From a virus: a stretch of DNA of 64,000 nucleotides. The notes under the pieces were generated by a model. That model was not told where the DNA came from and did no database searches. It saw only the letters and a program-made list of their open reading frames with translations. The position numbers and the translations under genes were made by a program. Location: positions 32,001 through 96,000 of the IMG/VR virus record IMGVR_UViG_3300032249_000861. One strand, written 5' to 3'. Positions 10,243 to 35,900 of this stretch are shown one piece after another (within the stretch, counting starts at the first letter, position 1; each line of letters opens with the position of its first letter).

Positions 10243-13200
10243 ATGGCTACAGCTTTTAATTTGACAGCACAACTTAATTTACGCGGTCCAAATAATGTTA
10301 ACAAGATTGTTGCAGACATTAAAAAGCAACTAACTGGTATAACTGCTAATGTTAATTTAAAACTAGACCCTAACGTTGCTAAAAATGTTAAAGCTATTGA
10401 TTATTCGCTAAAATCATTAAATGCTACATTATCTAAAACAACTACAAATGCTGGTTCCGCAGCAGCTGCTATAGCCGCTTTTGGTAAAGCTGTTAATGCT
10501 ATTAGTATAAAAAATGTATCGCCGCAAATTAATGCTGCTGTAGCCAGCATGAATAAGCTAAATAAGTCAAGCAGCAATGTTTCTCAGTCATTAACTGAAT
10601 CAGCAACAGAAATGCAAGAGTTTGGAAAACAAGCAGGATTAGCTATTAGACGTTTTGCGGCATTTAGTGCTGTTACTGGAGTTATCTATAGTTTAAGTAA
10701 TAGTATTACTCAAGGAATTCAAGCATATATAGATTATGATAAAGAACTAGTTCGTTTACAACAAGTTACAGGCGAGACCGCTGGAGGTCTACAATTACTA
10801 CAAGACTCAATTTCTCAACTAGCAACAGGTTTCGGCGTTAGCTCAAAAGAATTAACAACAGTATCAGTTACACTAGCACAGGCCGGTTTAAGTGCTAAAG
10901 ATACCGAAAGAGCCTTAAGAGCACTAGCATTAAGTTCATTGGCCCCATCGTTCGATGATATGAATGAAACTGTAGAAGGTTCTATTGCTTTGATGAGACA
11001 GTTTGGAATTAGTGCTGGACAACTAGAACCAGCTTTAGGTTCCATCAATGCTGTTGCTGCTGCGTTTGCTGTAGAAGCCGATGACTTAATTACTGCTATT
11101 CAACGTACCGGTGGTGTATTCGCCACTGCTAGTAAAGGCGTTAGTGAGGGAACAGATGCTCTTAATGAGTTCATTGCTGTATTTACTAGTGTTAGAGCAA
11201 CTACTCGTGAAAGCGCAGAAACTATTGCTACTGGTTTACGTACTATTTTTACACGTATTCAACGAGGAAGCACCATTGATGCTCTCAAAGAATTCGGCGT
11301 TACTTTAACAGACTCAGAAGGTAAATTTGTTGGAGCGTATAAAGCTGTTCAGTTATTAAGTGAAGGACTGTCTAAAATAGACACAAGAGATATTAAATTC
11401 TCTAGAATAGTAGAAGAGCTTGGTGGTTTTAGACAGATTGGTAAGGTTATTCCTCTTATTCAACAATTCTCTGTTGCACAAAATGCTCTTAAGATAGCTC
11501 AAACAGGACAATCTTCTTTGGCTAAAGACGCATCAACAGCGCAACTATCATTAGCAAATCAAATTCAAAAAGTTCGTGAAGAATTCTTCGCACTATTCCG
11601 TGAAATTGGACAAAGTAAAGGATTCCAGTCATTGCTTACTGGGGTATTAACATTAACAAGAGGTCTAATTAAGCTTGCTGATGTCTCTAAGAGCCTACTT
11701 CCTGCATTAAGTGTTGTACTAGCGTTTAAAGGAGCTAGTGCTTTAACTCAGTTTGCTAGTGGTTTCAGTAAAGGCTTTAGACCTGGCGGCGGCAAACCAG
11801 AAAAAGAAAGACCGCGATTTGCAGATGGTGGACAAGTTAGATACTATGCTAAGGGAGGACATGTTGCTGGTAGTGGAAATTCTGATACGATACCCGCCAT
11901 GCTAACTCCTGGCGAGTTTGTCATAAATAAAAAAGCCGCACGAGCTGTCGGCTCTAAGAATTTAAATAGGATTAATAGATATGCTTCTGGTGGTAAAGTT
12001 AAAGATTTAGTTAATGATCCTAATGGTAAAAAATCTCTTAAAAAGGTCTATGATATAAATAAAGATTTTGATAGTTATGAAGATCCTACAATAGATAGAG
12101 TAGACCTCGACAAAACATATGATCAGTATACACAACAATCTAAACAGATTTGGTTAGAGGCTAATAAAAAATACAAACAAGATTTAGCTCAAGGATACAA
12201 ACCCCAAAAAGGAGACGTCCCCCAATTAGCAAATGCATATATAAAAAGAGAAACTGGTGGACTAGCTCAGAATCTTGGATTCAAAGAACTAAGAGAGCCT
12301 CAGACGGCTAAAAAATTAAATAAAATTCGTGGAGCTTTAGCTGAAAATGAAGTTAAGAAAAGATATAAATTAGGAAATCCTCTCGCTTTACAAGATGGGG
12401 CTGATTTTTATGATGCTAAAAATGACAGATTCGTAGAAATCAAAAATCAGAAAAAACAATTAAAAGATTCTACTCTGATATCAAAAACATTGCTAGCATT
12501 TGCTGCGAGAAAAGGAAACAAGTTAAATAATCAACCAGATTATGTTCCTAGTTTAAAAATTCTTGCTGTTGAAGCTCCAAGCCCAGACAAATATGATGAA
12601 TTTGAAGAAAAAAAACTTGGCGGACCAATTAATAAAAGAGTTAAACAAGCTGTTGACTTCAAGAACCTGCACAAGATTAATGGGTATGCTAAAGGTGGGC
12701 CTATTGCAGCAAATATTACTGATACTACAACAAGCGATGGAGATACATTAAATGTAAATTTTACACCAGAACAAAAACCATTTAATACTTTGAGCAGATT
12801 AGAAAATTGGGATGCTTTTGAAACAGATGATGTTCAAGGTTTCAAAATACCCGAATGGCAAAGAAAATTGGGTAGAGCGGCAGCGAAGGTTACTTCTGAA
12901 GAATACAATAAACAAGATGACAAAGCTTTGAAAGCGTTTAGGTCGTCAAACGGAGCTATGGATAATTATGGTCGCCCAATGTTTAAAGATGATAATTTGG
13001 GGTCAAAATTAAAAAACTTAGGATTAGCTATGCCATATAAAGGTAAAGGCAAAGCTCCTACCAAACAGCTATCAACATGGGGAGACTATAGAAATATTTT
13101 TGGATATGCTCCTTCACAAGCACCAGGATTACAAGGAGAAGAGATATCAGAAGATAAGGCTGTAAAAAAAGCTTTGGGAGGAATGATTCAAAAGTTTGAA

Positions 13201-25200: not shown

Positions 25201-28200
25201 ACAAGAGCTGCTAGCGGAGCTACTGAAGCAGCACTAGGGGCGGGCATCAGAGGAGCAACTAGTGGTGGAGATTTCGGTACCGTACAAGATGTTGGAATGG
25301 ACTTTATCTCTGGAGCTATTCTTCCGTCTCCTAATTTTGGAGGTAAGGGATCAAAAAACTATAATATTCCAGAAGGTCCAGCAAAACCCAAAACAGAAGC
25401 AGTCGCTTTAAAAGAACTTGCTAAAACAGTTAAGGCTGAACAACGAGCAATCACAGAAGAAAATGTTCTTGATGGTGCTGAAATATTAGCAACAAAAAGA
25501 AAACAAGAAGAAGTTAGAAGAGCAGCACAAGAAAAACAAAGAGTCAGAGATGAAGCAGAAGCAGTGAAAGAATCAGGAAGAGAAAAGGCTGTTTTTGATG
25601 TTTTCACTATTGGAGGAAGATTAAGTGATGATAATATAGCCAGTGCCCTAAAGTCAGCCAAGGAAAAAACTGTAACAGGAACCAAGTTACTAACCGGCAA
25701 AGTTACCGGCAAGCCTAGGGGAGATTTAATAGAGCAGAATCCTACACTAGCTAGTAGACTAGGGGTGTCAACTCCAGGATTAGATGCTGTCAAGAATGGA
25801 CAAAATATAACAGCAAAAGATTTAGTTGCAAAACTAAAAGATGAAGGTTTTAGTGAAGAATATGCTAAGAAGGTCTCAAGAGAGCGTACTCTTAAGATGG
25901 TATCAGATCTTGCTACCGAACGATCAAAAAGAAAAGATGAATCAATACAACAAGTGGCTTCTGAATATAAAGACGCTGTAACTGGTGTTGAAGATCCTAA
26001 TAAGCGAGCCAAAATTAAGGCTAAATTTCAAACCAGACTGCAAAAAGAACTATCGTCTATAGTATCTGACACTAACGACAGAGCAGAAGCATTTGATTCT
26101 GGTATGACGGTTCAAGAACTTAAAAAACAAAGAGCAGCAGAAGCTCAAGCCAAAGATAAAGCAGAGTCTGATAAATTAATACAAGAGTTTGATTCTACTC
26201 TAGGATCAAGTAAGCCAATAACTATTGATAATCCGCCCATCGGAGAACCTCTCGATCTAGGAGTAGACCCACTCGCACCAATAACGTCTGCCAGGGATAA
26301 TGCCGCTACTACGGCAGCTAGTACAAAACCGATATCAACAGAAGAACAGTCTCCGGTTGGAGAAACCACAATTCCTCAGCCTAATAAAGATGCTGCTGAT
26401 ACCGTAACTGCCGGTACAAAACCAGTCGATGCTGCAACAGTAGCAGCAAAAAACCAGACAGTAGTCAAGGCAGCAGAACAAGAAAATACATCTTCGCTAC
26501 AAACATCAGCGATACCGCAGCCCAAACCCTATAATCCTACAGATTATCCTATTATGGATAGTATTATGAGAGGAGGAAAGAACGGCCATTATGGTCCGAT
26601 GGGTACTACTAATATAACAGGTAAACAAAATATTCATGGAATAAGCGGATGGAAAACTAGACTCATACCAAAAGACGACGCGTCTGCAGCAAAAATTAAA
26701 GAATTTTTAGATACTCATCCAGATATAGGGTCATATAAGTTAGCATTAAATGAGGGACCAGTACCAGTATTTAGTGTCTATTTCAAAAAAGGCACCAAAG
26801 ATGAAGCACTATCTTTTGCACAAGCTAGTGAAAAAGGACTAAAAGATAGTTTAGATCCTCGTTTATATCAGGGTGCTGATACTCTGCTAGAAGGGACAAA
26901 TATTTCCGCAAGATTTGATGCTAGAGATCTAAAGAATAAATCAGCATCATCAATTATAGATAGACAACTAGAGAATTCTCCTTTTAGTAGAGGATTTTTA
27001 AAAGCTGAAGAACTGAATCTACAAATACTTCCATCAAATACGGCACCTGGGTCAACGGCTAGCAGAGCAATGCCAAACATTACTGCTGGCACCAGAGGAG
27101 TACCAGATACCGGGTATGTTGATTGGTTAAAAACAAAAAAGTTTTTGGCGAAAGATCCTAAAAAGATAGCTAGTCTAGATGCAGAGATACAAAGAGCTAC
27201 TAACGTAGCAGATGATTGGCTAAAAGAAAATATGTCCGACATCTACAGCGCATCTGCTGAACGAACAGCTAGAGAATCAACAGGCCCACAACAACAAGCA
27301 GTAGTTGAAACAGCAACAAGAGACGCTACGAGCAGGCCAACCAAATCCGGTTTTGTTCGAGATAAATCATTACCGATAAACGAAGTAGACGATCTAGCTT
27401 CTGCCGGATTTGGAGTTATAAGCCCAGACCAAGAAGTAGAAAGTGTTATAAGGGGTGCAAGAGAAAATTTTCTTGGCTCTTTAACTAAACCAGCAGCATT
27501 ATTACAGCCAGAAACATACCAAAAATATGCAGACCAACTATTAGAACTAGAAAAATCAGGAAAAATAAAAATAACCAAAGGCGCTTCATTTGGTACTAGT
27601 GGCCAACCAAGTATATTTGTAGGAAAACCAGAAAATGTAGATATTCTTGCAAAAGCTTTTGAATCTGAAACAGCAAGGACACGAGAAACGAGAGGTTCAA
27701 CATCAAATGAATTTAAAGAAACGGTAGGAAAAGCATTAGGATATAGTAAAGATAGTATAGCCCTACATATATTAGAAAAAGATTGGGATAAAGCAGGATT
27801 AGATATAGACACTATTCAAGATAGATTACAAGTTAGTCGTGGTGCTGCTGCTCGGTATATGGTATCAGAAATTAATAAAGCTAAAGAACAAGCATCAGTT
27901 GAGCAAGGAGTAAAAGAATCAATAAACCCGCCCATCAAAGATCCTATTACTGGAGATGAATTTGAATTAGGACCTGGAGATGATTTTCAATTAGGAGGTC
28001 TTGGAGAAGATCCGTTGGCACCGGCTCCTATAATAAAACCAGAAAATGTATTACCTGAAGCAAGAGCAGAATCAGAAGCTCGTAGAGCCGAAACAGCAAC
28101 CTCACGAACTAAATCTAGTATTGTTGATGAAGATGAGTTTGTTTTAGGAGACATGGAAGATGATAGTACTGTCGTAGCTGTTGAGCCTGACGATGGTTCG

Positions 28201-31200
28201 AACTTTTTTGGAGAAGCATTCGCTGCCGCCGCACAAGAAGCCAGAGCCATAGAAGCAACAAGGGCTCAGATTGAAACCAACGATAAGTTTGTTGTTGACC
28301 AGCCTGATATGATGACAGCTTCAGAGCTTGACCCAATAACAAGAGCTTCTAGTAGGAGGGTTTGGGGATCTGATAAGGCTTTTGAAAATATGCCCAAACC
28401 CAAAATTTCTAGAGAAAAAGTCAAAGCACTAGACACTGGCGAGCCTGACGAGATGACAGCTTCAGAGCTTACTCCTCTACAGAGGGCCGTTATTAATAAG
28501 TCATTCGGACTTGATTCTGATAAAGGTTTCGAATTGCGAGAACAACTTATAGCTCAAAAAAGAGAAGCAGATATACTTCCAGAAGACTTTTTTCCAAACG
28601 GTTCATCAAGAACAGAAACTCCATTATCTTCAGCTAGAACAGAAGCAGAAGCTAAGAATCCTGGTACCGTATTTGAAGGACAGTTAGAAGCAGCATTAAC
28701 CGATGCTTCTTCTCCAGAAGCTTTAAAAGCTTCTGCAGAAGCTCAACAAAGATTAGCAGCACAAAAATTAGCAGCAAAATCTCCAGAACAAATATCTGTA
28801 GAAAAAACATATGGTCCTTTATATAGAGAAGCTAAAAAAGCTAATGATACAGCGGAGATGGCCAGAATACGATTAGAAGCTAATGCAGAATTTAAGAAAC
28901 GCTCTCAAGAAGCTTCTACAAGATCTGAAGATAAAAAGAACAATTTCCTTCCTGTTATGGGTAGGGTCTTAAAGATAGCCGCCCCAATCGGATCAGCTAT
29001 TGGTTATGGACTAGGATCGTTATTAAGTGGTTCTATGGGCAGAAAAAAAGAAGAACCTCAAGATTTAGCTTCTAGGTTAGAAAATGCTTCTGATCTACAA
29101 GAAGTTTTTGATCTTTTAAAACTAGCAGAAAAAGACAAGATAGGAAACCCGACTAATCCTTTAAGAGAAATAGGCGGATCATCCCCACTTATTGCTAAAT
29201 TACAAAAACTAGCTCCAGAAATATATGGTAAAAAAGGTAGTGACTATTTTAGCTCTCAAGACTTAGCAGCTATGCCGGAAGACGCATATAATGAGAATTT
29301 TCTAGAAAGATTAAAAGATAATGCAACATTCGAGAAGATGAAAAGAGAACAAAAGGTAGCTGAACCTGCTCGCTTAAAGAGTGATGAGGCTGCACGGGCT
29401 ACAACAAGAGATCTTATAACGCAATGGTCTCAAGACTTTGCTATGGCGGGTAATGATGTCCGAACTCCTCCAGGTTCTGATCCTAAAAAAGCTAGAAATC
29501 CGTTAAAAGCCATGTCACGAGAAATGGCAGAAAGAGCACAAGAAAGAAGAAGTGGATTCCCCACAGACGATCAAGGAAACGATCTACAGATAGGCACTAT
29601 GATTCCCGCCCCGATATCGGTTTTAGATCGTACAAAAAATGATGCTGCAGCGATGAGAGAAATTGACGAAAAAGATAATAATGCTGCTCCGATGCTGGAA
29701 GTTAAGAAACCAGTAAAGAAATCTCTTGGGGGTTTAATTTATGCGTCGAAAGGAACCTTAGTAAACTACCAACCTCGTGGAACTGACACAGTACCAGCAA
29801 TGTTAACTCCGGGCGAGTTTGTTGTTAATGCCAGAGCAACAGCAGATAACTACCCATTACTAAAAGCTATTAATAGCGGAACTAACGTTGATACTACTGC
29901 TAATATGAGTAAGGGCGGTGTGGTTTATGCTCAAGAAGGAGCATTAGTACCTAGCTTCGGAATGCATATTCCATCTTTAGATCCAGACAAAAATACTAAA
30001 TTAACCCTATTACCAGAAAGCTCTTTAGATCAAGCAAATACAAAAGAAGCTTTTCGAGAATATGGAAACGCTCGACCTTCCTATCAATCAAGACCACAAC
30101 TACCAAAGCCAACTGTTCAATCAGGATCTTTTAAAGAAGGAGTTCATGATAGAAATTCTGTTATAAAAGATAGTGAATATTCTAGAAGTTTAAAGAGAAT
30201 GGGTATTCCACACGTATCACAGAGTGGTGGATCTAAAACCTATTTGGATCAAAATGGCAGAGAAATTTCAGCAAATGAATTTAAACTTTTACCAGAAACG
30301 TCTTTTAATCATCCAGAATATGCAGTCATGCGTAGCAGAGCAGCTTTTGCTGCTGGAGCTGCTAAGTCTGTTGTTCCTCAAATGGGGGCTACGTCTGGGG
30401 CTATAGCAGGAGCAGCTGCCGGAGCCGTATTAGGACCTCCCGGAGTAATTGCCGGAGGCTTGATTGGAGGTTTGACTGGTGGTATAATGGGATCGGCATT
30501 ACAAGAAACAGCATTAGATATAGCAAATCCAGAGGCTAACGCTATAGCTAATCAACTAATGGATCAAAATCCCGTATCAGCAATGGCAGGATCAGCAGCA
30601 GGAGACATTGCAACAGGAGGATTACTATCATTAGCCTTGCCTTCTATACCAACACCAACAAGGGCTGGAGATTCAATGGTTGGTCCCGGAGGACTAACAC
30701 CAAAACAAATAAAACATGCTGAAAAAGGATTAAATAGACCCATATCAGAAGCGATTACTCCGTTTACAGGAATGAAAGGATTTGGAGGTCGTTATGTTGA
30801 CGGTCCAATAAGTGTTGATCAGTTAGTATATAAATCCAGAGACAACTTGGCTGAGAGTATTCATTACTCTGGGGCAGATCCCAAAACATTTGATTCATTA
30901 ACAACAAGATTAACAGAACCTGTTCCTGGAGCTCTTGGTGATTATTACCAGGGACTAAGCAGGATATCTCCTAAAGCTCCTCCAGAACATATTATTGGAA
31001 CAATAGCTCATGAGGCTGGCCATCATTATCAAACAATGAAGGACCCTACTGGAAGATTCGTAAAAACTTGGATGTCAGATAATAGAGATCAAGCAAGTGA
31101 CTGGATTTTAAAAAGAACATCCTCTCCTCAATATCTTGAAACTGCAACTCCAAGAAACCAGGTGAATTATGGAGTTAATGATATGCTGAGTGGGGATTTT

Positions 31201-32967
31201 TATAAACAGAGACAAATGGAACAATTAAGAAAAGAGTTTGGAGAGGATGGTTTTAAGACTTTATTAGAAGACTCGTTAGCACATACTCTAGGGGCTGGTA
31301 AAAAAGGCATAGCTGGAGATGTAAATTCAGCACTAAGATTTGAGTCTCAAAACTATATTCGCGGCAGAACTGGTGGCAGATATGGCGAAGCAGGACTAGC
31401 ATTTGGAGGCGAAGACCTGTCTCGCATAGATCCCGATATAATGGCAAAGGTTGGAGTAAGAGCTCCACAAACCTTAACAGGTCACGACAGAGTTTTAGAC
31501 GCTATGACAAGATATGGTCAGGATAAGGGTTTTGCATTTCCTAATTTTGTAGATAATGCAGAAGTGTCTGGTAGACAAGAATTTCTTACGTCTATGTTCC
31601 AGGATTTAGGAGGAGCAGATAAAGAAGCCAGAGGATTATCTCAAGGATTAGTCAAATTTATCGAAACTAAGGGTGGAGAAGGCGTAAAAATGACTCCACC
31701 GCCACTTCCTCCATCTCCACCACCACTTCCTGTTAATAGATACGCAAATGGCGGAATGGTCAATATGTCTGAAGGTAACAAGATTCCATCCGAAGTATGG
31801 GCAATAGGTACAAAATATACAAATGTTATGTCTCCTGAAGATTTTGAAAAACGCAAAGTCATTAGACCAAAATTATCTGATGATAGTACCTATGATACCC
31901 CCAAGGTTTTTAAAGACTATCACGAAGCACATAAAAAACCTATTAGTATTGATCCAGCATTACTAGATAAACAATCTTCTTTCTCTAAGTATTTACAGTC
32001 TGGCGGTCGAAGAATGTCTAATAATGTTGAAATTGCACCAAAATTAACCACAGATGAAGTATTACAATATTTTCAAAATATAAAAGCAAAAGAACGTCGT
32101 GAAGGTTCTCCTCCTGCTGGTGGTAGGGTTCAATATGCAACTGGTGGAATAGTTTATGCAAATAATGGTGCCCTCATAGCTGCACAACCAATGGGAACTG
32201 ATACTGTTCCAGCGATGCTAACTCCAGGAGAATTTGTTGTCAAAAAAGAACAAGCTCAAAAACACGCTCCAATATTACATGCTATAAATAGTGGAGCTTA
32301 TAGTAGGGGTGGTATTGTTAATTATTTGGCTAATGGTGGTATTGTTAATCCAAACTATTTATCTTATGGTGGCTATGCCAAAATGGGAGAGCAAGATCGT
32401 CGAGATCCATTAAAAGAGATGAGTCAGAGAGTAGCAGAATATAACGCCGCTGCAGCACCTCAACCAGTACCACTTCCTGCTCCAGCCCCAGTTCAAGTTC
32501 CATCTCCAGCACCAGTTGGTGGTGTATCTAATAATATTGGTATAGATTTAGCTGGTTTGCAATCAATAGTGGCTAATTTCCAGAAAACGGTCAATGATTT
32601 TGGAGCATCGGTGCCTTCGCTTTCACAAGTGGCAGAGAGTATGAATACTGGTTTTAGTTCTTTCGTAACAGGAGGATCTCAAATAGGAGAGATGTTAAAT
32701 AGTGCAACAGCTGGTTTACAACAAGTTAATCTTCCTGATAGGATTAGACTAGAAGGTTCAGTAAGTAATAATGTAAATATTAACGGTGCTGAAGCAGCCG
32801 CTAGGGTTATGGATACTATGGGCGGTGCTATTCAACAGGGCGCAAATGAACAAATAGGCAGATTCGCCGGAGCTATTAATAGAGGTATTGGTAATTTGGG
32901 TGAAGGAGCATTAGGTCCAGATACTGGTCAAATTATGGGTCAAATAGGTGGTTCAAATTATGCTTAA
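10243..32967 (+). CDS. giant (7574 aa) tape measure protein / multi-enzyme polyprotein
   Basis: N-terminal TP901-type tape-measure core (YDKELVRLQQVTG...LAQAGL...ETIATGLRTIFTRI...LKEFGV), long helical stretches, five DT.PA.L.PGEF modules, and many embedded enzyme motifs. Confidence 0.9.
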   Translation: MATAFNLTAQLNLRGPNNVNKIVADIKKQLTGITANVNLKLDPNVAKNVKAIDYSLKSLNATLSKTTTNAGSAAAAIAAFGKAVNAISIKNVSPQINAAVASMNKLNKSSSNVSQSLTESATEMQEFGKQAGLAIRRFAAFSAVTGVIYSLSNSITQGIQAYIDYDKELVRLQQVTGETAGGLQLLQDSISQLATGFGVSSKELTTVSVTLAQAGLSAKDTERALRALALSSLAPSFDDMNETVEGSIALMRQFGISAGQLEPALGSINAVAAAFAVEADDLITAIQRTGGVFATASKGVSEGTDALNEFIAVFTSVRATTRESAETIATGLRTIFTRIQRGSTIDALKEFGVTLTDSEGKFVGAYKAVQLLSEGLSKIDTRDIKFSRIVEELGGFRQIGKVIPLIQQFSVAQNALKIAQTGQSSLAKDASTAQLSLANQIQKVREEFFALFREIGQSKGFQSLLTGVLTLTRGLIKLADVSKSLLPALSVVLAFKGASALTQFASGFSKGFRPGGGKPEKERPRFADGGQVRYYAKGGHVAGSGNSDTIPAMLTPGEFVINKKAARAVGSKNLNRINRYASGGKVKDLVNDPNGKKSLKKVYDINKDFDSYEDPTIDRVDLDKTYDQYTQQSKQIWLEANKKYKQDLAQGYKPQKGDVPQLANAYIKRETGGLAQNLGFKELREPQTAKKLNKIRGALAENEVKKRYKLGNPLALQDGADFYDAKNDRFVEIKNQKKQLKDSTLISKTLLAFAARKGNKLNNQPDYVPSLKILAVEAPSPDKYDEFEEKKLGGPINKRVKQAVDFKNLHKINGYAKGGPIAANITDTTTSDGDTLNVNFTPEQKPFNTLSRLENWDAFETDDVQGFKIPEWQRKLGRAAAKVTSEEYNKQDDKALKAFRSSNGAMDNYGRPMFKDDNLGSKLKNLGLAMPYKGKGKAPTKQLSTWGDYRNIFGYAPSQAPGLQGEEISEDKAVKKALGGMIQKFEEGGVAQRKVGYIDYDVIANEANKDIVEKGMKETGSDGPRIYSDYLTKLAVNARKSSSIQKLRAIYGVAGSGKTTLARGQGTDNARLRKTERFPILSPEDIQKATEILILTSSVSQTKMDDFFGDVDRAYTLSSTTDAERSRVRDQRGSRDVTGIGLEGRQPGTTMGVSADTAVGEALLSDKLGAKSTVLGRSGSGRLRRKSGNELVDIVKKRIGFTWGGFAPTTAGHESIMDAAAAMGIPPEDFIALVGANEAVDASSYRTAIFDQDSRVLLAKAGFGAKGATVLPKPRDFEVPQGFDITQQGSDRRQVLIPSQGSTAFVADKTEDQTAKYRQAGYDVKNIERTGGISGTMVRDLIIAGDMAKLQSVLSPGVYDLVSNNIGRIQNRASVLPSLIEQAQKEAQAEMGQVDQQIEALGIKRIDSKKLESDPEYAAKVEVLKELRAKKQKIKSAAGFTPYKLLDALAEKDPQNYALDFSTSSNLGNVPDMRVMGQNSQASIPAGRVAQLAQEKNKSIQDVILEQLGGLGGPAGVKKILGIGSGDRTLSSLLQAGNIKGGKGLDEAADYVNRALAARGIRDAAEAKRLEEYQAKALHFGIAGLLPMDYSKEFEWDIGGTDVYATARGFGSTYLEEAKQMQKESSELAQRFAENVQNKNIFGGGEKLAFDFDKTLVEDADILDAKGKPDIAKYSNREAVQEALKSARPTRLATKLKSLIEQDPPFIKKTRILTARPQSTADLLAQSLQSFGLPYAETDITGVSGGVSSNIPALKAANLQKEEKLIDDSLDNIMAVRKAGKKGFQYTEPKSTTSELDEKMGQGNIEGAIIEKALAVLGAPVRPDAKQNRAIDYPDGLGSASQFFPGIDPGIPTEVKRTIDGSSLEKVREEIGRYITGGAQAVKLARGGAVQSFMAGGAATKTRKTKEPFGTGETEFPTRISKKYAEEQKTADEFAKSKLAWDKYPKDERIMVDDTKVQEAYQQPFDRERFASSFKEKISRDSLFQRMSDFAKFVGLPEEDLSVALPLQLDFGASKRGGGLGMFAAAQFEKGATGIRPYEGYDLSKFGYGEKQKQEAYGLEKLITAKEKEIAKIRKTPTETYDDGSFSFDSEAFQKTSIELDSLKNRLFKLKDLKRDAEKAALSEQNTTSSAAGRGTISFASSMGYSSDTKNSTLYHEMTHQLFQGLRTKSAGSFDKYRDRVSSLFSGDNDDLADAFDSLTAGGGYSSADVVYGRSYKSNNLSQILSSYYRQNLDFSRSAATIPQDTTKNLASLSTQSTAAKRAREYRPINPRVNEALLQAGDKFGMTQEKIDRMEDNGKEEFLTTLMEKAPQLDQNLQGILDSTLTELLSGAGIQRQKYAAGRKVDYESGVGVSPFGGSISKRLSESVYNLQKGTGLSDPEFNEIKKTADTYGYNEEEFKEYLAKRIQEKKNKQGLRASPSALAQQLMQQKTVSTPKQLALAETLKGEPDAGYRPIPTAAERIASDRMAVQNATRRFASGGTVSALVSNGEAYVPPKIAKRIGYGNLNRMNQADRNGMSKFSSGGISVFKGPGTGTSDSIPANLPVGSFIIREKATKALGLNKGGAVPAQRFATGGSVTSMIMEWLSSDMTAGTKPKMPQRPDIVSRATVTASSDTTKELDNLVKSLNAVGFSAKESADILNRGGQVSYKTIEKALVKDIERLKKSTAGIDQITQAETTLARIRNQTKKDVGSKQKMEEAFRGSGRSSGSVQQEIYSTAMSMGEQNIEAKEAARRKKIPQIEKRERKKLIESKREDFIEKEYKNQVAKEQKTKGRKLTSTEKDKVRSDAELKGNTKTFKLTTEEKTNVKATAQAKTTLSAEERTKEYNKAALRATTSVTGASKSELAAKNVKGSDILRYAQESMRDRKTLAEMDKQFVAMAMDEYKNRGTVNGIVVKSAAEAKKAAEEEISKRREAINARASQNGEKGVGAAGLRDYRNSPILNQIKGFIKSPGRVMGGVSVAAGLAAGSSDMIAKNMYDMSTTEGQGKAAKTSAAIQSSGTILSTGLAAASQMATIPVIGPYVAALTAVGTAAAAAADYFYDFTGAQKAATVEFERSVRAKEIGIAMDGLDRAFQNFEKDMGNIDLQNALEKSLGGASSLQIKDNMAERDNAKAEFSLKNRSWSDIFSGNFKGSAKMDALQQGAMDSEMSQKITPIADKAMSLYEKQISSGKSIQDIVNNVRTGNKEAGAAGFAVAASVNPKLWSELEAKIAKSGDTSEQNREKIQKEIAARELLTNVQLQSIERMAKLNKEMDAADRAGRRLAETFEHIGETIDQSIQRMQRESQIRQAQANDRVEARRGNAGFDERAVNNRNVGVLTSPKAYQNDPGRIEEAIRAGTTGMSPELAQKMAGGARLEATLPNVMRNAVSSELKTNANLDLAEAADAARKKGTEAIQRSGLSEADQKVAIDKLNTKLNSEQEKAQKEGGDSPRQKVDFFIDSVSELGPEIANIFGNAGKRLDDIIQARQGIYDTFAKNLQAASEAAKKAREFFSKARDIRYNAGMDLREAQTGVGESYAEAKAKSDSSIARLTGGVTDPQAIGRNIDALTARRDQQMKARDAAASDPNLTPKQQEDAAIKFAKDIQATNNALNDNREALDKLANSAEVAQKALDEVKNIRGLQQDRENFVNQLLTNTPAEADKLNQSFIRLQRNLSGGLNNASNQRDARNAFNDTLRRTGNLREATRAGNTVLADQRKQTLQLMQDPGFRGMMTLNMKNQGMNDQQIDKKFRDQESMLMQQMAVESGMINNPMVRQALAAKQDPNADPAMKRAAEQFLQSTGLQAKATEEQGRLELANVQSLLITSTDDLRTSIDALTTSINASLGPDGERVPGAVGPMVPVPAGARGAGPIGRPIRRATGGKVNTQYASTGKLIDFSPKGTDTVPAMLTPGEFVVNAKATADNYPLLKAINNGTNLVGNTAMMSKGGVVYLDNGGLIDEFRRIDSNSSNFLEVGEIDLKMMQLLDTDKDNKVSFREYSARAKSGGSGSSRSGQRSPVNSSFKADNLSFKAYSNAREEKYSKRYEGTRDRFPRETEKFSSGGLVTPYYLQDGTEKPLSKRPFMVKMEKPEDPLEAAERRRARALKASHPEITRVRQPSLVPGDPRALRHKESFYRLDVNSDGVLDAKEGRPHPELDRDLDRRITLEEWDGIDPGEFDPDDSSHVLRDSKGNPLTPGLMGSPFEKRHRSLMASVAMDEEKLAKGEPLVDSNGKPIDLASKRKELAIFNAQSGLYNTSQSLIARQKNIDDSLTKRLTGGGSLRNPDSSYAVTREFNKIRDRRSAFEEERRGQRAKDENATDEEIFDRTVEAYGQGDSDYWRSMGVTEAPNSYDESNTLNFIRSGDRLASRGDPYGDKARAYIDGYIASQGARQQQDRVDIGMGRPTISPDKAVVGTQGPVDDLNYLIDRNEVGRAVKYKAEQAKTEEENKQRDDAQVKQAEKQASLEKRDKELGIDTSGINRDIYESGGGFSNQPGSGRKVTVEEQTQRKRERAIADRFSFTDKTGKYSTAGTIDKVDFEKGTVKIAKMDPKTGEPITRTVPVFAGGETEEAIKASGRDPRRFKVGEKEEQVYTTVPLDKLSDKSRDKVRSYGLEKEADKAKTGENFTVGTSFEDYKGKIFRVDEKSEKVIVQKEDGKLVSVPMGIIDPETKNIALDQAKTATTVTDLTQKQMDADIGNIDFTSSLPEPQVPLIEDFTDRANEVRQETMNNAALEQTKMDQLPVMSEPVPTSGTIDPLTGKVVGNNVSMDLNPDGTRTPEQLNILNQQATRDADRRNSNARYEELRARSKAESSYDRSWFGENWPKEWGGVSKPEKRLTRKELEELGAMESERGVPALSRLGANTRVEQTRRNAGLDEAQIESLSQQKTEQFKAELEKKNDAEGGVAVGLAAQRAVVPLLAGATAVAAAPALVPAGVIGAGLTIAGGVGFSLGANKLQDVALEGTDFDKRQKELAEKRPGATAVGSLLPGLLTGNPLTGATTLRQALATRAASGATEAALGAGIRGATSGGDFGTVQDVGMDFISGAILPSPNFGGKGSKNYNIPEGPAKPKTEAVALKELAKTVKAEQRAITEENVLDGAEILATKRKQEEVRRAAQEKQRVRDEAEAVKESGREKAVFDVFTIGGRLSDDNIASALKSAKEKTVTGTKLLTGKVTGKPRGDLIEQNPTLASRLGVSTPGLDAVKNGQNITAKDLVAKLKDEGFSEEYAKKVSRERTLKMVSDLATERSKRKDESIQQVASEYKDAVTGVEDPNKRAKIKAKFQTRLQKELSSIVSDTNDRAEAFDSGMTVQELKKQRAAEAQAKDKAESDKLIQEFDSTLGSSKPITIDNPPIGEPLDLGVDPLAPITSARDNAATTAASTKPISTEEQSPVGETTIPQPNKDAADTVTAGTKPVDAATVAAKNQTVVKAAEQENTSSLQTSAIPQPKPYNPTDYPIMDSIMRGGKNGHYGPMGTTNITGKQNIHGISGWKTRLIPKDDASAAKIKEFLDTHPDIGSYKLALNEGPVPVFSVYFKKGTKDEALSFAQASEKGLKDSLDPRLYQGADTLLEGTNISARFDARDLKNKSASSIIDRQLENSPFSRGFLKAEELNLQILPSNTAPGSTASRAMPNITAGTRGVPDTGYVDWLKTKKFLAKDPKKIASLDAEIQRATNVADDWLKENMSDIYSASAERTARESTGPQQQAVVETATRDATSRPTKSGFVRDKSLPINEVDDLASAGFGVISPDQEVESVIRGARENFLGSLTKPAALLQPETYQKYADQLLELEKSGKIKITKGASFGTSGQPSIFVGKPENVDILAKAFESETARTRETRGSTSNEFKETVGKALGYSKDSIALHILEKDWDKAGLDIDTIQDRLQVSRGAAARYMVSEINKAKEQASVEQGVKESINPPIKDPITGDEFELGPGDDFQLGGLGEDPLAPAPIIKPENVLPEARAESEARRAETATSRTKSSIVDEDEFVLGDMEDDSTVVAVEPDDGSNFFGEAFAAAAQEARAIEATRAQIETNDKFVVDQPDMMTASELDPITRASSRRVWGSDKAFENMPKPKISREKVKALDTGEPDEMTASELTPLQRAVINKSFGLDSDKGFELREQLIAQKREADILPEDFFPNGSSRTETPLSSARTEAEAKNPGTVFEGQLEAALTDASSPEALKASAEAQQRLAAQKLAAKSPEQISVEKTYGPLYREAKKANDTAEMARIRLEANAEFKKRSQEASTRSEDKKNNFLPVMGRVLKIAAPIGSAIGYGLGSLLSGSMGRKKEEPQDLASRLENASDLQEVFDLLKLAEKDKIGNPTNPLREIGGSSPLIAKLQKLAPEIYGKKGSDYFSSQDLAAMPEDAYNENFLERLKDNATFEKMKREQKVAEPARLKSDEAARATTRDLITQWSQDFAMAGNDVRTPPGSDPKKARNPLKAMSREMAERAQERRSGFPTDDQGNDLQIGTMIPAPISVLDRTKNDAAAMREIDEKDNNAAPMLEVKKPVKKSLGGLIYASKGTLVNYQPRGTDTVPAMLTPGEFVVNARATADNYPLLKAINSGTNVDTTANMSKGGVVYAQEGALVPSFGMHIPSLDPDKNTKLTLLPESSLDQANTKEAFREYGNARPSYQSRPQLPKPTVQSGSFKEGVHDRNSVIKDSEYSRSLKRMGIPHVSQSGGSKTYLDQNGREISANEFKLLPETSFNHPEYAVMRSRAAFAAGAAKSVVPQMGATSGAIAGAAAGAVLGPPGVIAGGLIGGLTGGIMGSALQETALDIANPEANAIANQLMDQNPVSAMAGSAAGDIATGGLLSLALPSIPTPTRAGDSMVGPGGLTPKQIKHAEKGLNRPISEAITPFTGMKGFGGRYVDGPISVDQLVYKSRDNLAESIHYSGADPKTFDSLTTRLTEPVPGALGDYYQGLSRISPKAPPEHIIGTIAHEAGHHYQTMKDPTGRFVKTWMSDNRDQASDWILKRTSSPQYLETATPRNQVNYGVNDMLSGDFYKQRQMEQLRKEFGEDGFKTLLEDSLAHTLGAGKKGIAGDVNSALRFESQNYIRGRTGGRYGEAGLAFGGEDLSRIDPDIMAKVGVRAPQTLTGHDRVLDAMTRYGQDKGFAFPNFVDNAEVSGRQEFLTSMFQDLGGADKEARGLSQGLVKFIETKGGEGVKMTPPPLPPSPPPLPVNRYANGGMVNMSEGNKIPSEVWAIGTKYTNVMSPEDFEKRKVIRPKLSDDSTYDTPKVFKDYHEAHKKPISIDPALLDKQSSFSKYLQSGGRRMSNNVEIAPKLTTDEVLQYFQNIKAKERREGSPPAGGRVQYATGGIVYANNGALIAAQPMGTDTVPAMLTPGEFVVKKEQAQKHAPILHAINSGAYSRGGIVNYLANGGIVNPNYLSYGGYAKMGEQDRRDPLKEMSQRVAEYNAAAAPQPVPLPAPAPVQVPSPAPVGGVSNNIGIDLAGLQSIVANFQKTVNDFGASVPSLSQVAESMNTGFSSFVTGGSQIGEMLNSATAGLQQVNLPDRIRLEGSVSNNVNINGAEAAARVMDTMGGAIQQGANEQIGRFAGAINRGIGNLGEGALGPDTGQIMGQIGGSNYA
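12300..12600 (+). other. TMP cassette: PD-(D/E)xK-like nuclease domain 1
   Basis: G..AE (GALAENEV), ADF, VEIK motif order. Confidence 0.55.
12700..13040 (+). other. TMP cassette: staphylococcal-nuclease-like (thermonuclease) domain
   Basis: DGDT...RLENWDAFE...G.AA...DNYGR...L.N.GLA. Confidence 0.8.
13380..13700 (+). other. TMP cassette: P-loop nucleotide-kinase-like domain
   Basis: Hydrophobic strand followed by GVAGSGKTTLA; later RxxxR-like lid (RSRVRDQRGSR). Confidence 0.7.
13830..14340 (+). other. TMP cassette: HIGH-superfamily (cytidylyltransferase-like) nucleotidyltransferase
   Basis: GGFAPTTAGH (TxGH) and ISGTMVRDLI (ISxTxxR) signature motifs. Confidence 0.8.
15181..15600 (+). other. 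TMP cassette: HAD-family phosphatase
   Basis: Motif I LAFDFDKTL, motif II ILTARP, motif III K (ALKAA), motif IV LIDDSLDNI. Confidence 0.8.
15640..15870 (+). other. TMP cassette: PD-(D/E)xK-like nuclease domain 2
   Basis: EGAIIE, AIDYP, TEVKRT motif order. Confidence 0.45.
16240..17250 (+). other. TMP cassette: zincin-like metallopeptidase 1
   Basis: GTISF strand, TLYHEMTHQLF at 16708, downstream EEFLT helix. Confidence 0.65.
21883..22035 (+). repeat. conserved TMP junction module, near-identical in protein to the copy at 29779-29928
   Basis: GTDTVPAMLTPGEFVVNA(K/R)ATADNYPLLKAIN.GTN....TA.MSKGGVVY in both; other copies at about 11880, 17850 and 32195. Confidence 0.9.
22060..22690 (+). other. 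TMP cassette: two EF-hand pairs
   Basis: DSNSSNFLEVGE / DTDKDNKVSFRE and DVNSDGVLDAKE / DRDLDRRITLEE loops. Confidence 0.7.
23731..24210 (+). other. TMP cassette: two SHD1 (SLA1 homology domain 1)-like domains
   Basis: FSFTDKTGKYSTAG...TVKI.K...VPLDKLSDKSRDKV; second copy YKGKI.RVD..KVIVQKEDGKLVSVPMGIIDPET. Confidence 0.65.
30900..31670 (+). other. TMP cassette: zincin-like metallopeptidase 2
   Basis: LGDYY, TIAHEAGHHY at 31009, downstream QEFLT helix matching EEFLT in peptidase 1. Confidence 0.65.
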
Positions 32968-32987: not shown

Positions 32988-35900
32988 ATGGCAAATAAAC
33001 TGGTAAAAGTTTTTGATAATATAGGATTTAATTTTCAAATCATTAATGGGAAGATTAGTCCTATAAAAACCCTAGTTGGATTTAATGGGTTAAATCAAAA
33101 ACATGTAGGTTATTATATACCGTATATATGTCGTAATAAAAAACTAAACTTATTAGAGATTGGTATAGGAGATGTTCAAAACGACGATTCTGGTAACGTA
33201 ATTATTAATAAGCATAAAATAGTAGTATCCTCAAATAATAATAATGCTGTTAATTTTGAAAATGATAGTAATAATGAATTTTTTGTTTTTGCCAATCAGA
33301 ATATTTTTAATAGTAGCATTAGTAATGTTGTTGTAATAGACTCTAATACCTTTATAGACAATGTCTCTGCTATTTATCTAGCAGATTGCTCGAACCAATC
33401 AGTATCGGTCACATTACCAGAAATATCTCAAGCAGAAAACTTGGTACTAGAATTTAAGAACATTTCACCTAATCATGATTTAATTATTAGAGATAGTAAG
33501 GGTGGTTCAGTAACTATACTAGATGGTCAAAAAAGTTATTCTAAACTAGTTACCACCAATGACCAATGGATATCTTTAGATAACAATAATAGTACAGAAT
33601 ATCTAAATACTCAATCATCAGAACCAATACTATCTGCTCAAAGTTCTCCTGTTGGCGATGATTTCTCACTACAATATAAACAAGGCAGTAATTTTGCTGA
33701 CTCTAATATGTACTGGGATTCAGTCAATAACGATTTATTATTAGGCGCAGACAATAGTACTGATGCTTACTCAGTCATTCCAACATCTGGTAATAGACCT
33801 CTATATATTAATCAGAAAAAGTTAAATAGTGATTTAGTTGTTTATGGTAGTGGTAATAGGAATCTATTCTTTTCTTATGATGGTAGATTAGGTCTGAATA
33901 TTCCATCAGGATCTAGACCATCTACCATATTTCATATTGTAAATACTGTGTGTCAAGAAGGTTTCAGACTAGAAAATCGTAATGCTTGTCATCCAGCAGA
34001 CATTACTTTATTTCATAAGCCCAACTCAGCTATTGTTAATGGATCTATCATATCTCAAATTAATTTAGCTGGTAAGAATACTAGTGGAAATAAAACAGAT
34101 TACGGAAGCATAGAGGCTTTGGCAATTAATACGACAGCAAATCTTGAAGAAGGAGGATTGCAGTTTAAGATTGCTGCTGCGTCTACTGGAGTAAAAGTTT
34201 TTGACAGTAATTATTCAGCCACAACGGTAGGCTATAGTGGTAATAGTCTAACTATTAATCGTACAGGATCAACAGTATTACAAAATAACAACACCTCTGT
34301 TACTTTGTCTTCTAGTAGTGTGAATATAAGCGGATCAGCAGTAACACTAAATACATCTAATTTAGTTCTTGGTGGTGCGGGATCTTCTGTTAGTGTTCCT
34401 GGTGCAATTGCCGCTGGACCAATATCAGCAACCTCATTACAGTCAAATACTATAATTGCTCCAAATATTGGTAGCGGCAGTTTTATTACAACCAACGGAG
34501 ATAATAGGCTTGTCGGCAGTACCACAATGTCTGTTAATTCTTTGGGTACTCTTAATTTACCCATTACGCCAAACAAACTATTACAAACAACAACAAACGG
34601 TGCCATAACTGGTATATATTCTACAGATGATTATTTCAGAACAGATGGAGATATTGTTTGGAATAAGTACACGCAGAGACTAGCATCAGCCTGTTTAAAA
34701 CAAATAACATTCGTTAACCCCGTATCTGTGGATGAATATAGTGTTGGGGATCAGTTAGCAATTGTATCATCTTCATCTACTTTTTACAGAAGAATTGCGG
34801 ATGTTTATGTTGAGAATAATGCTATCACAGGACTACTAGTTGATCAGGATGTTTCTCCTACAGATATTGATGGAATAACAGTGTACTCTGTTACCAAAGG
34901 AGGATATCTTGATATACAAGTGTCTACCGAAGAAGGAGTAATATCTGATTCTACAAAAAATGTTATTAGCGCTAGACCAGGAACAAGTACGCTATTTAAT
35001 ACTCTACAAAAAGATATAGATTTTTCAGTATACGGCATAGACTCTACCCCAGCATTAAAGATTAAAGCTAACTCTGGTAAAATCAGCATAATTTCTGGTA
35101 TGTATCGCGCCTTTTCTCCAAAGCATGAATTGCCAGCATTTCCAATTGTTGTAACTACTGGTGGTGTCGGTATATCTAATTTATATTCTTCAGCTAATTT
35201 TAATTATAGTAATACCCAAAATTTATTTTCTGGCATAGTATCTGATGTTGGGTCTAATGGACTACCTTCTCATTACGGAACATATGATCAAAATGGTAAT
35301 GCTTCGGAATGGATAGAAAAACCAGGAATGTTAGAAAGTAGAGATAAAGAAGAATTTGTTGCTGGTGGTTCTTATTCTACATCAAATGCTATTGAAGGGA
35401 AAGTCCTAAAACATGTAGAAACATTAATCAGAGCAACTGGATACTCTTACGTCGGCTTTAGAGTAGCATCTCTTTATAACACAACAGATCCCACTAACAT
35501 ATCAGCACCAGACAAATTATCAATGAGCTTTGTTGGCGTTGTTGATCCTCAGAATACTGAAGATGTTTCTACAACCTATATCCGAAGTACTACCGGTGGT
35601 ATTGAACAATTTAATTCAATAGTTATAAATAATCTGGGCGTTGTCGATAGTATGTACAGGATTGGAAAGTATGAAGTAACAAATAAACAATATTGTCAAT
35701 TCTTAAATGTTGTTGCTAAGAATAACGATAGAAGATTATATGATTCTAAAATGGGTAGTGATGCTGTTGGGGGTATTGATCGTATATTTGATGCTGAATA
35801 CATATATATTGTTAAACCTAATATGGATAATAAGCCAGCAGTATTTGTAAGTTATTTAAGTGCTATTAGATTTATTAATTGGCTTCATAATGGAGCTGCT

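What the first reader, a model, noticed from the sequence alone, without database searches (positions are those of the whole stretch)
11845..32350. Five copies of the DT(I/V)PAMLTPGEFV module partition the TMP
Seen: copies at about 11880, 17850 (SDSIPANLPVGSFII), 21885, 29780 and 32195, plus a degenerate VSALVSNGEAYV at about 17690. Copies 3 and 4 are almost identical over about 50 aa, yet differ at many third codon positions, which indicates an old duplication under purifying selection. Known: typical siphovirus TMPs carry one such motif near the C-terminus. Inference: the gene grew by repeated duplication of a TMP C-terminal unit, and each module could nucleate oligomerisation, chaperone binding or processing of its segment.
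Basis: partly seen in the sequence, partly recalled or inferred. Interest (0 to 1): 0.75.

Follow-up and report, generated by a model that had tools for sequence, protein, structure and literature searches.

The report
Repeated lambda-type joints partition giant tape measure
The 7,574-residue tail "ruler" protein of this uncultured phage repeats six times a small conserved joint that phage lambda's ruler has once beside its cutting region. The copies sit at the borders between conserved ruler parts and fast-changing inserts; whether they are cut is untested.

Summary
ORF 10243..32967 is one 7,574-aa tape measure protein (TMP). It holds the motif at all five stated places. The "degenerate" sixth copy is a full, conserved subtype that forms a tandem pair with copy 2. 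Each copy is an ~85-95-aa module: a glycine hinge, a beta-hairpin (DTVPAMLTPGEFV), two short helices and a second glycine hinge.

Copies 3 and 4 are 92% identical over a 38-aa core while their synonymous sites are near saturation (dN/dS about 0.04).

The module is the element at lambda gpH 730-794. In most cultured-phage TMPs checked it occurs once, 60-150 aa from the C-terminus.

In this clade of uncultured phages, the 150 top-scoring proteins carry 3-11 copies and the complete TMPs in the fetched loci carry 2-6. The copies are old and match by position: 575 of 589 are closest to a module in another protein.

Homology with relatives breaks at the modules: 45% of breakpoints against 12% expected. 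They separate three conserved parts from three hypervariable inserts.

Cleavage or docking at the modules is inferred from lambda and T5 only. Only an EF-hand is confirmed in the inserts.

This scan has already described the same feature on at least nine other genomes.

The parts
10243..32967 (+). Tape measure protein gene, 7,574 aa, one uninterrupted ORF
   Evidence: ORF list and translation. PF10145 scores 78.8 bits against a cut-off of 33.2. PHROG 28 and 4211 are tail length tape measure families.
10804..11388 (+). PhageMin_Tail (PF10145) core of the conserved N-terminal part (aa 188-382)
   Evidence: aa 1-~590 is shared by 221 IMG/VR relatives at 51-87% identity.
11770..12036 (+). Module 1 (aa 510-598), the most lambda-like copy
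   Evidence: HMM E 7.5e-35. Pairwise vs lambda gpH 705-784: 32% over 81 aa, E 2.8e-7. TIGR01541 positions 253-306, E 0.015, below cut-off. 98 homology endpoints fall in aa 500-599.
12037..17577 (+). Hypervariable insert A (aa 599-2445), with orphan glycine motifs at aa 815, 976 and 1884
   Evidence: Only 7-49 of 150 relatives cover it, and its sub-blocks are reordered in relatives. Sub-threshold P-loop and HIGH-nucleotidyltransferase hints only. In the closest relative P0029, aa 580-978 is replaced.
17578..17820 (+). Module 2a (aa 2446-2526), subtype (V)SALVSNGEAYVPP, first half of the tandem pair
   Evidence: HMM E 6e-22. 96% identical to the P0029 counterpart. The same pair occurs in 25 distinct relatives.
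17776..18003 (+). Module 2b (aa 2512-2587), subtype GTSDSIPANLPVGSFII
   Evidence: HMM E 2.2e-21. AlphaFold2 of the pair gives hairpin plus helices in each half, pLDDT about 80-85.
18004..21771 (+). Conserved body (aa 2588-3843), helical with a hydrophobic stretch; probably the ruler and channel part
   Evidence: Collinear block from module 2b to module 3 in most relatives. Coverage rises to 120 of 150. A ~1,100-1,300-aa block between modules recurs in complete relatives.
21772..22065 (+). Module 3 (aa 3844-3941)
   Evidence: HMM E 3.2e-38. 107 homology endpoints fall in aa 3900-3999.
22066..29664 (+). Hypervariable insert B (aa 3942-6474), nearly unique to this phage
   Evidence: Mostly 0-4 of 150 relatives cover it. 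EF-hand_1 at aa ~3960-3979 scores 28.7 bits against a cut-off of 25.4; nothing else passes.
29665..29973 (+). Module 4 (aa 6475-6577)
   Evidence: HMM E 8.6e-37. 63% identical to module 3 over 90 aa. No counterpart detected in P0029.
29974..32085 (+). Hypervariable insert C (aa 6578-7281)
   Evidence: 2-8 of 150 relatives cover it. No Pfam family passes its cut-off.
32086..32367 (+). Module 5 (aa 7282-7375), the 'last' copy, positional equivalent of the single lambda copy
   Evidence: HMM E 2.1e-39. Its nearest neighbours are the last modules of other proteins.
32368..32964 (+). C-terminal tail (aa 7376-7574), expected hub-plug part
   Evidence: The last module ends a median 136 aa before the C-terminus in 150 relatives. 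By analogy with lambda gpH 818-849 bound to gpI (PMC12617516); not tested here.

Best explanation
What the modules are: ancient, multiplied copies of the junction element that ordinary lambda-type tape measure proteins carry once, between the ruler body and the small C-terminal piece that plugs the tail tip.

Anatomy of each copy:
- an upstream sequence-specific glycine hinge, [K/F/R/L]-[A/S]-x-G-G-hydrophobic-[V/I]-Y-A;
- a beta-hairpin (D-T-V-P-A-M-L-T-P-G-E-F-V);
- two short helices (conserved L and N);
- a second hinge, [Y/F]-[S/N/A]-x-G-G-x-[V/I].

Where they sit: in this phage clade the copies lie exactly where conserved scaffold meets hypervariable inserts (aa 599-2445, 3942-6474 and 6578-7281). 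The scaffold is the N-terminal core, the ~1,250-aa body and the C-terminal tail.

Proposed mechanism (inferred, not shown): the joints act at the protein level. The upstream hinge would be the maturation cut site. Lambda cuts gpH in the glycine run just upstream of its module, and T5 cuts pb2 at R|AEGGMMY. The hairpin-helix 'hook' would dock the new end in the tube or hub. The precursor would then become scaffold pieces plus separate insert pieces that leave the tail ahead of the DNA.

What is shown and what is not: homology, copy number, age, selection and border position are shown. Cutting, docking and delivery are inferred.
For: Identity:
- The A2 profile hits lambda gpH 730-794 at E 3.7e-4 in a search of all PDB chains. 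It also hits Douge gp16 twice (E 9e-14) and JBD30 gp46 1015-1068.
- Module 1 vs gpH 705-784 pairwise: E 2.8e-7.
- Module 1 matches TIGR01541 positions 253-306.

One copy near the C-terminus is the norm in cultured TMPs.

Clade-wide multiplicity: 17,073 representative proteins match the profile, and the top 150 carry 3-11 copies. The first copy lies at about aa 508 and the last ends a median 136 aa from the C-terminus. There is about one module per 755 aa.

Age and selection: dN/dS is 0.036 with pS 0.65 for copies 3 and 4. 575 of 589 modules are nearest to a module in another protein; first pairs with first in 111 of 118 and last with last in 86 of 117.

Borders:
- 45% of long-HSP endpoints lie within 40 aa of a module, against 12% expected. 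Coverage by relatives collapses right after modules 1 and 3.
- Orphan hinge motifs are also enriched at breakpoints, 25% against 7%.
- The short motif occurs 17-22 times against 1-4 expected.

Hinge residues are conserved rather than merely glycine-rich, and T5's R|AEGGMMY fits the upstream consensus (site from PMC10038345).

Lambda's ~14-kDa gpHC implies a cut near residues 712-720, just upstream of its module (PMC12617516).

AlphaFold2 gives a hairpin plus two helices. The JBD30 authors predicted the same shape for their residues 1022-1066 (PMC11445458).

Negative control: P23-45 gp96, a 5,002-aa cargo TMP reported to stay full-size in virions, has no module and no hinge motif.
Against: - No direct evidence of cleavage at any module here or in any relative.
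- The lambda cut site is not mapped, and the protease is unknown in lambda and in T5 (PMC12617516).
- T5 pb2 does not match the module profile; only the short hinge motif resembles it.
- The module region is unresolved in every solved tail (lambda, JBD30, Douge), so docking is conjecture.
- AlphaFold2 confidence is moderate (mean pLDDT 63-66) and no fold neighbour was found.
- No relative has the gene split at a module, so there is no natural proof that the pieces work apart.
- Enzyme identities of the inserts are not confirmed by Pfam, apart from an EF-hand.
Confidence: 0.45

Rival explanations
1. The modules are uncleaved structural joints. The hairpin-helix hooks of the three or six TMP chains would pack together, or against the tube wall, at intervals. 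This would keep a very long chain in register and let each insert behave as a separate bead. The protein would stay in one piece.
For: - The module is not an autonomous globular fold, which fits an element that folds on binding.
- Spacing is regular, about one module per 755 aa.
- The gene is never split at modules.
- P23-45 shows that a giant cargo TMP can stay full-length.
- Strong amino-acid conservation fits a binding interface equally well.
Against: - The two TMPs known to be cut (lambda, T5) are cut at or next to this kind of hinge.
- The hinge residues around GG are sequence-specific, which is unusual for a passive spacer.
- P23-45, the uncut example, lacks the module altogether.
Confidence: 0.3
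2. The modules matter mainly as recombination linkers. They would be conserved patches at which co-infecting relatives exchange cassettes, with little function of their own in the protein.
For: Homology breakpoints and cassette replacements pile up at modules and at orphan hinges.
Against: - Within the genome, synonymous sites are saturated while amino acids are kept (pS 0.65, dN/dS 0.04). Selection therefore acts on the protein, and the DNA offers little identity for homologous exchange.
- The same element is conserved as a single copy in ordinary TMPs that have no cassettes.
- Breakpoints at domain borders are also what selection on viable recombinants would leave behind.
Confidence: 0.1
3. 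The modules are binding sites for the tail assembly chaperone (the G/GT type) or another assembly factor. They would be repeated so that a very long, insert-laden TMP stays soluble and assembly-competent.
For: The element is short, linear and conserved, and seems to need a partner to fold. It recurs along the chain.
Against: - In ordinary TMPs the single copy sits at the far C-terminal end, inside the fragment that lambda cuts off, not along the chaperone-coated ruler.
- No chaperone was identified here: the ten upstream genes have no PHROG match.
Confidence: 0.1
4. The copies are chance or low-complexity matches in a very long glycine-rich protein.
For: The protein is long, and GG dipeptides are somewhat enriched (84 against 55 expected).
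Against: - There are four exact 13-residue matches and 85-95-aa similarity, with E down to 2e-32 between copies.
- Thousands of homologues exist.
Confidence: 0.01

Closest known systems
Phage lambda tape measure gpH and its maturation to gpH* plus gpHC (PDB 8IYK; PMC12617516)
   Same: - Same module by sequence: gpH 730-794 at E 3.7e-4 (profile) and 2.8e-7 (pairwise with module 1).
- Same order of parts: glycine run, module, then a short C-terminal tail.
- Lambda's cut, which releases about 14 kDa, falls in the glycine run just upstream of the module.
   Different: - Lambda has one copy and no inserts; here there are six copies bracketing three hypervariable inserts in a protein nine times longer.
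- Lambda's cut site, its protease and the role of its module are unknown, so lambda gives position but not mechanism.
Phage T5 tape measure pb2, cut after R1127 into pb2* and pb2C (PMC10038345)
   Same: - The cut lies directly before A-E-G-G-M-M-Y, which fits the upstream hinge consensus found here.
- The released C-terminal piece carries an activity and is expelled first.
   Different: The hairpin-helix module is not detectable in pb2. T5 has a single cut and a single small cargo.
JBD30 gp46 'hook' (residues 1022-1066, predicted; PMC11445458) and mycobacteriophage Douge gp16 (PDB 8ZDO)
   Same: - JBD30 1015-1068 aligns to the module, and its authors predicted the same shape: a hairpin plus two helices.
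- Douge carries two copies, at 959-1030 and 1411-1462, so a cultured phage already shows duplication.
   Different: Both regions are unresolved in the maps. The JBD30 cut at residue 1066 is only a software prediction. Neither has hypervariable inserts on this scale.
Thermus phage P23-45 gp96, a 5,002-aa TMP fused to a virion RNA polymerase (PMC10770324)
   Same: It is a giant TMP that carries a functional non-ruler domain into the host.
   Different: It has no module and no hinge motif. The polymerase stays part of full-size gp96 in virions.
Periodic repeat units in tape measure proteins (Belcaid et al. 2011, PMC3271669)
   Same: Both concern internal duplication within TMP genes.
   Different: I saw only the title and abstract, which concern units of TMP length, duplications and losses. 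From my own knowledge, those are short tandem ruler units. Here the repeats are dispersed, ~90-aa, position-specific joints about 750 aa apart.
Polymorphic toxin systems (CdiA, Rhs) with a conserved motif before a swappable C-terminal domain (PMC3482391)
   Same: It works alike in one respect: a conserved short element marks where variable cassettes are exchanged. From my own knowledge, in Rhs that element is also where the chain is cut.
   Different: There is no sequence relation. Here there are several internal cassettes, not one C-terminal tip; a phage tail context; and no immunity genes. This is an analogy only.

Membership tests
Tape measure protein (Pfam PF10145 PhageMin_Tail; PHROG 28) | Match to the family model above its curated cut-off | tested here: met
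   PF10145 scores 78.8 bits against a cut-off of 33.2 at aa 188-382. PHROG 28 E 3.9e-29.
Tape measure protein (Pfam PF10145 PhageMin_Tail; PHROG 28) | Position in a tail gene block, upstream of distal tail and hub genes | tested here: inconclusive
   A downstream 827-aa protein gives weak minor-tail PHROG hits. The ten upstream genes give none. Tail morphology is unknown.
Lambda gpH-type C-terminal junction element (part of NCBIfam TIGR01541 tape_meas_lam_C) | Significant sequence match to lambda gpH residues ~730-794 | tested here: met
   Profile A2 vs all PDB chains: E 3.7e-4. Module 1 vs gpH 705-784: E 2.8e-7.
Lambda gpH-type C-terminal junction element (part of NCBIfam TIGR01541 tape_meas_lam_C) | Reaches the curated score of TIGR01541 over the whole 332-position model | tested here: not met
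   14.4 bits against a cut-off of 104.75, covering positions 253-306 only. The protein shares the element, not the whole lambda C-terminal domain.
Lambda gpH-type C-terminal junction element (part of NCBIfam TIGR01541 tape_meas_lam_C) | Single copy 60-150 aa from the C-terminus | tested here: not met
   There are six copies. Only module 5 is near the end, 199 aa from it.
Lambda gpH-type C-terminal junction element (part of NCBIfam TIGR01541 tape_meas_lam_C) | Lies beside the maturation cleavage of the TMP | not testable with these tools
   This needs virion proteomics. In lambda itself the site is only inferred from fragment size (PMC12617516).
T5 pb2-type processed TMP | Sequence similarity to pb2 around the R1127 cut | tested here: not met
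   Neither the HMM nor hhalign finds a match. Only the A-x-G-G-hydrophobic-x-Y hinge resembles it.
Cargo-bearing TMP (P23-45 gp96, mycobacteriophage TMPs with embedded enzyme motifs) | A recognisable enzyme or other non-ruler domain embedded in the TMP | tested here: inconclusive
   Only EF-hand_1 passes Pfam's cut-off. P-loop and HIGH-nucleotidyltransferase hints are sub-threshold.

The most novel reading that the evidence does not exclude
The module is a standard, sequence-specific processing-and-docking signal. It would turn the tape measure into a true polyprotein. At assembly or ejection the chain would be cut at every upstream hinge. The tail would then deliver a programmable series of separate proteins into the host ahead of the DNA, and relatives would reprogramme this payload by swapping cassettes at the joints. 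The same signal would explain the long-unmapped gpH to gpH* cut of phage lambda.
Probability: 0.3. Interest if true: 0.85.

Novelty: new variant of a known kind. Interest (0 to 1): 0.6.

Why it matters
Tape measure proteins are known as rulers and channel formers, with an occasional embedded enzyme. Here a whole clade of uncultured phages uses one small conserved joint, present once in lambda, to divide rulers of 2,000-7,900 residues into fixed scaffold and fast-changing inserts. The clade has at least 221 relatives in IMG/VR, and about 17,000 representative proteins in all carry the module.

If the joints are cut, a siphophage tail would be a multi-protein delivery device with standard connectors.

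The same element would also point to the still unmapped cleavage site of lambda gpH and to how it is recognised. That question has been open since the 1970s and could be tested with simple lambda genetics.

If the joints are not cut, they are still an uncatalogued TMP building block with no Pfam family.

Tried and rejected
- Pfam and NCBIfam on the isolated modules: no family, apart from a sub-threshold TIGR01541 match.
- T5 pb2 against the module by HMM and by hhalign: no match, so I do not claim that T5 carries the module.
- AlphaFold2 of one module: low confidence (pLDDT 63). I therefore ran no fold search on it.
- Foldseek of the tandem-pair model against the PDB: nothing at E <= 0.001.
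- Search for relatives with the gene split at a module: none in 80 loci.
- Pfam on the three inserts in ten pieces at E <= 0.5: only the EF-hand passes its cut-off. It did not recover the staphylococcal-nuclease, PD-(D/E)xK, HAD or HExxH peptidase domains proposed by other first-stage notes. That does not exclude them.
- Literature searches for a description of this module or of giant modular TMPs: nothing specific.
- Not run: multimer structure prediction (not on hand), and a copy count over all 17,073 hits (only the best 150 are returned).
Full report
**What is there**

The window holds one uninterrupted ORF, 10243..32967 on the + strand, of 7,574 codons. Its N-terminal part matches Pfam PF10145 (PhageMin_Tail), at 78.8 bits against a cut-off of 33.2 over aa 188-382. 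It also matches the tape measure PHROGs 28 and 4211. The assembly is a single 110,025-bp phage contig, and this gene is 20.6% of it. The ten upstream genes have no PHROG match. A downstream 827-aa protein gives weak minor-tail hits.

**Check of the observation**

- A fuzzy search for DT[IV]PAMLTPGEFV finds the motif at aa 548, 2538, 3883, 6515 and 7320. Four matches are exact.
- Tile-against-whole BLAST shows that the repeated unit is about 85-95 aa. Copy 3 (3852-3941) vs copy 4 (6487-6572) is 63% identical, E 2e-32. Copies 3 and 5, and 4 and 5, are about 48% identical. Copies 1 and 5 are 41% identical.
- A profile of the copies scores six full modules: aa 510-598, 2446-2526, 2512-2587, 3844-3941, 6475-6577 and 7282-7375. 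The profile was built from these copies, so the BLAST figures above are the independent evidence.
It forms a tandem pair with the SDSIPANLPVGSF copy, and the same pair is present in 25 distinct relatives.
- Copies 3 and 4 are 92% identical over a 38-aa core, yet 18 of 38 codons differ at the third position. pS is 0.65 and dN/dS is 0.036. Over 55 aa the identity is 73%.

**Anatomy of the module**

An alignment of 99 modules from this protein and its relatives (A2) gives these nearly invariant positions:
- G-G, then A..G (the Y-A-S-x-G stretch);
- D-T-x-P-A-x-L-x-x-G-E-F-V;
- L and N in the following segment;
- a second G-G.

Around both G-G pairs the neighbouring residues are specific rather than merely glycine-rich. 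Upstream the pattern is [K/F/R/L]-[A/S]-x-G-G-hydrophobic-[V/I]-Y-A. Downstream it is [Y/F]-[S/N/A]-x-G-G-x-[V/I].

AlphaFold2 of a single module is of low confidence: pLDDT 63, with only a helix pair confident. AlphaFold2 of the natural tandem pair gives each half a beta-hairpin followed by two short helices at pLDDT about 80-85, with floppy hinges. Foldseek finds no structural neighbour. The module has no Pfam family.

**What it is related to**

- The profile finds three tape measure chains among all PDB sequences: mycobacteriophage Douge gp16 with two copies (959-1030 and 1411-1462, E 9e-14), lambda gpH 730-794 (E 3.7e-4) and JBD30 gp46 1015-1068 (E 0.1).
- Module 1 aligns pairwise to gpH 705-784 at 32% identity over 81 aa, E 2.8e-7. 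It also matches positions 253-306 of NCBIfam TIGR01541 (tape_meas_lam_C) weakly, far below the cut-off.
- In all three solved tails the module region is unresolved. Lambda resolves only residues 818-849, JBD30 the last 33 residues and Douge 1658-1699 (PMC12617516, PMC11445458, PMC13033339).
- The JBD30 authors predicted a 'hook' of two helices and a short hairpin for their residues 1022-1066. This is the same stretch and the same shape.

**Controls in ordinary TMPs**

| Phage TMP | Length (aa) | Module(s) |
|---|---|---|
| RHph_Y3_1 | 1,065 | one, 929-985 |
| Dina | 1,796 | one, 1583-1648 |
| EBPR siphovirus 1 | 2,141 | one, 2019-2080 |
| R6L | 1,099 | one, 974-1030 |
| Nutello | 1,377 | one, 861-943 |
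| Nodularia 2AV2 | 3,404 | tandem cluster at 979-1209 |
| T5 pb2 | 1,219 | none |
| P23-45 gp96 | 5,002 | none |

With lambda and JBD30 added, one copy 60-150 aa from the C-terminus is the usual state.

**The clade**

- The N-terminal 600 aa finds 221 relatives in IMG/VR, on contigs up to 244 kb. The match always ends at about residue 587, which is the end of module 1.
- The module profile finds 17,073 representative proteins at E <= 1e-3. The best 150 are 935-7,872 aa long with 3-11 copies.
- In those 150, the first copy is at about aa 508 and the last ends a median 136 aa before the C-terminus. Copy number follows length (r = 0.71, about 755 aa per copy). 128 of the 150 share this N-terminal core.

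**Age of the copies**

Among 589 modules in 118 full-length relatives, 575 have their nearest neighbour in a different protein. First modules pair with first modules (111 of 118) and last with last (86 of 117). The copies are therefore ancient and match by position. They are not recent repeats and are not homogenised.

Only the module is repeated. Nothing like the C-terminal tail follows the internal copies.

**Partition**

- Of 751 endpoints of long alignments between this protein and the 150 relatives, 45% lie within 40 aa of a module, against 12% expected. There are peaks of 98 endpoints at aa 500-599 and 107 at aa 3900-3999.
- Coverage by relatives is about 120 of 150 over aa 1-600 and falls to about 10 just after module 1. 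It rises again to 120 toward module 3 and falls to about 2 just after it. It is 83 at module 4 and about 57 at module 5.
- The conserved parts are thus aa 1-598, 2446-3941 and 7282-7574. The hypervariable parts are aa 599-2445, 3942-6474 and 6578-7281.
- The short hinge motif also occurs alone. Phi-[A/S]-x-G-G occurs 22 times against 3.9 expected, and [A/S]-x-G-G-x-[V/I] occurs 17 times against 1.0 expected.
- Of the remaining endpoints, 25% lie within 30 aa of the eight 'orphan' motifs, against 7% expected. They cluster mainly at aa 976 and 1884.
- The closest full-length relative, P0029 (7,279 aa), is 92% identical over aa 1-579. It then carries a different segment up to the orphan motif at 976 and is collinear afterwards.

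**What the inserts are**

Pfam confirms only an EF-hand (aa ~3960-3979, 28.7 bits against a cut-off of 25.4). There are sub-threshold hints of a P-loop and a HIGH-type nucleotidyltransferase. I therefore call these parts hypervariable inserts. The enzyme identities proposed in other first-stage notes are not confirmed here.

**How it most likely works**

Two tape measure proteins are known to be cut.
- Lambda gpH loses a ~14-kDa C-terminal piece 'from the glycine-rich region'. The site and the protease are unknown, and the fragment stays in the tail (PMC12617516). From the sequence, 14 kDa puts the cut near residues 712-720, in the glycine run directly upstream of the module.
- T5 pb2 is cut after R1127 (PMC10038345). 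In the sequence this is ...FVPR|AEGGMMY..., which fits the upstream hinge consensus even though pb2 lacks the rest of the module.

P23-45 gp96 is a giant cargo TMP reported to remain full-size in virions. It has neither the module nor the hinge motif.

My best reading, at probability about 0.45, is that each module is a sequence-specific joint. Its upstream hinge would be a maturation cut site and its hook would dock the new end. The precursor would then become scaffold pieces and separate insert pieces.

The main rival, at about 0.3, is that the same joints are never cut and serve as docking or registration nodes. Roles purely as a recombination linker or as a chaperone-binding site are less likely. 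The reasons are saturated synonymous sites with conserved amino acids, and the single C-terminal copy in ordinary TMPs. No relative has the gene split at a module.

**Novelty and standing**

I found no paper that describes this module or its repetition. Embedded domains in TMPs and a TMP-fused polymerase are known, so I rate this a new variant of a known kind.

This scan has already reported the same feature on at least nine other genomes, with similar conclusions. I reached the lambda, T5 and JBD30 links from my own searches before reading those notes. I took from them the P23-45 lead, which I then tested.

Noticed in passing
window 17578-18003: Modules 2a and 2b form a tandem pair of two distinct subtypes, (V)PALVSNGEAYVPP... 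and GTSDSIP..LPVGSF... The pair recurs in 25 distinct relatives. In some of them it sits directly after the N-terminal core, at about aa 510-650, as if insert A had been placed between an ancestral module 1 and the pair.
   Followed up: partly
window 29665-29973: Module 4 has no detectable counterpart in the closest full-length relative, P0029 (7,279 aa), although the flanks are collinear. This may be a recent gain here or a loss there.
   Followed up: partly
window 22066-29664: This 2,533-aa insert is shared by only 0-4 of 150 relatives over most of its length. It holds an EF-hand that passes Pfam's cut-off, and a hydrophobic stretch with a weak holin-like hit (aa ~4860-4940, E 0.005).
   Followed up: partly
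window 13240-14742: There are sub-threshold Pfam hints of a P-loop NTPase followed by a HIGH-type cytidylyltransferase-like domain (E 0.003-0.1). Pfam at E <= 0.5 did not recover the staphylococcal-nuclease-like domain that another first-stage note proposed nearby (12700-13040).
   Followed up: partly
window 32988-36518, 46294-50085, 50533-52035: Three large downstream proteins each give a weak hit to the same PHROG (18508, annotated 'kinase'). This suggests a shared repeated domain in the tail or fibre genes.
   Followed up: no
window 54069-63998: There are two further giant ORFs: 2,137 aa, and one that runs off the window (2,667 aa in the full contig, contig positions 92486-100489). I did not search either against any family library.
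   Followed up: no
window 1-10131: None of the ten ORFs upstream of the TMP has any PHROG match at E <= 1e-3. The head and tail-tube genes of this clade are therefore very divergent from catalogued phages.
   Followed up: no
L081:17122-20781 (T5 pb2): The 'zinc carboxypeptidase' signature annotated in T5 pb2 (G-E-H-G-T-E-V-V) lies 14 residues after the R1127|AEGG cut. This is roughly where the modules here have P-G-E-F-V-V. The resemblance is by eye only; profile comparison finds nothing.
   Followed up: partly
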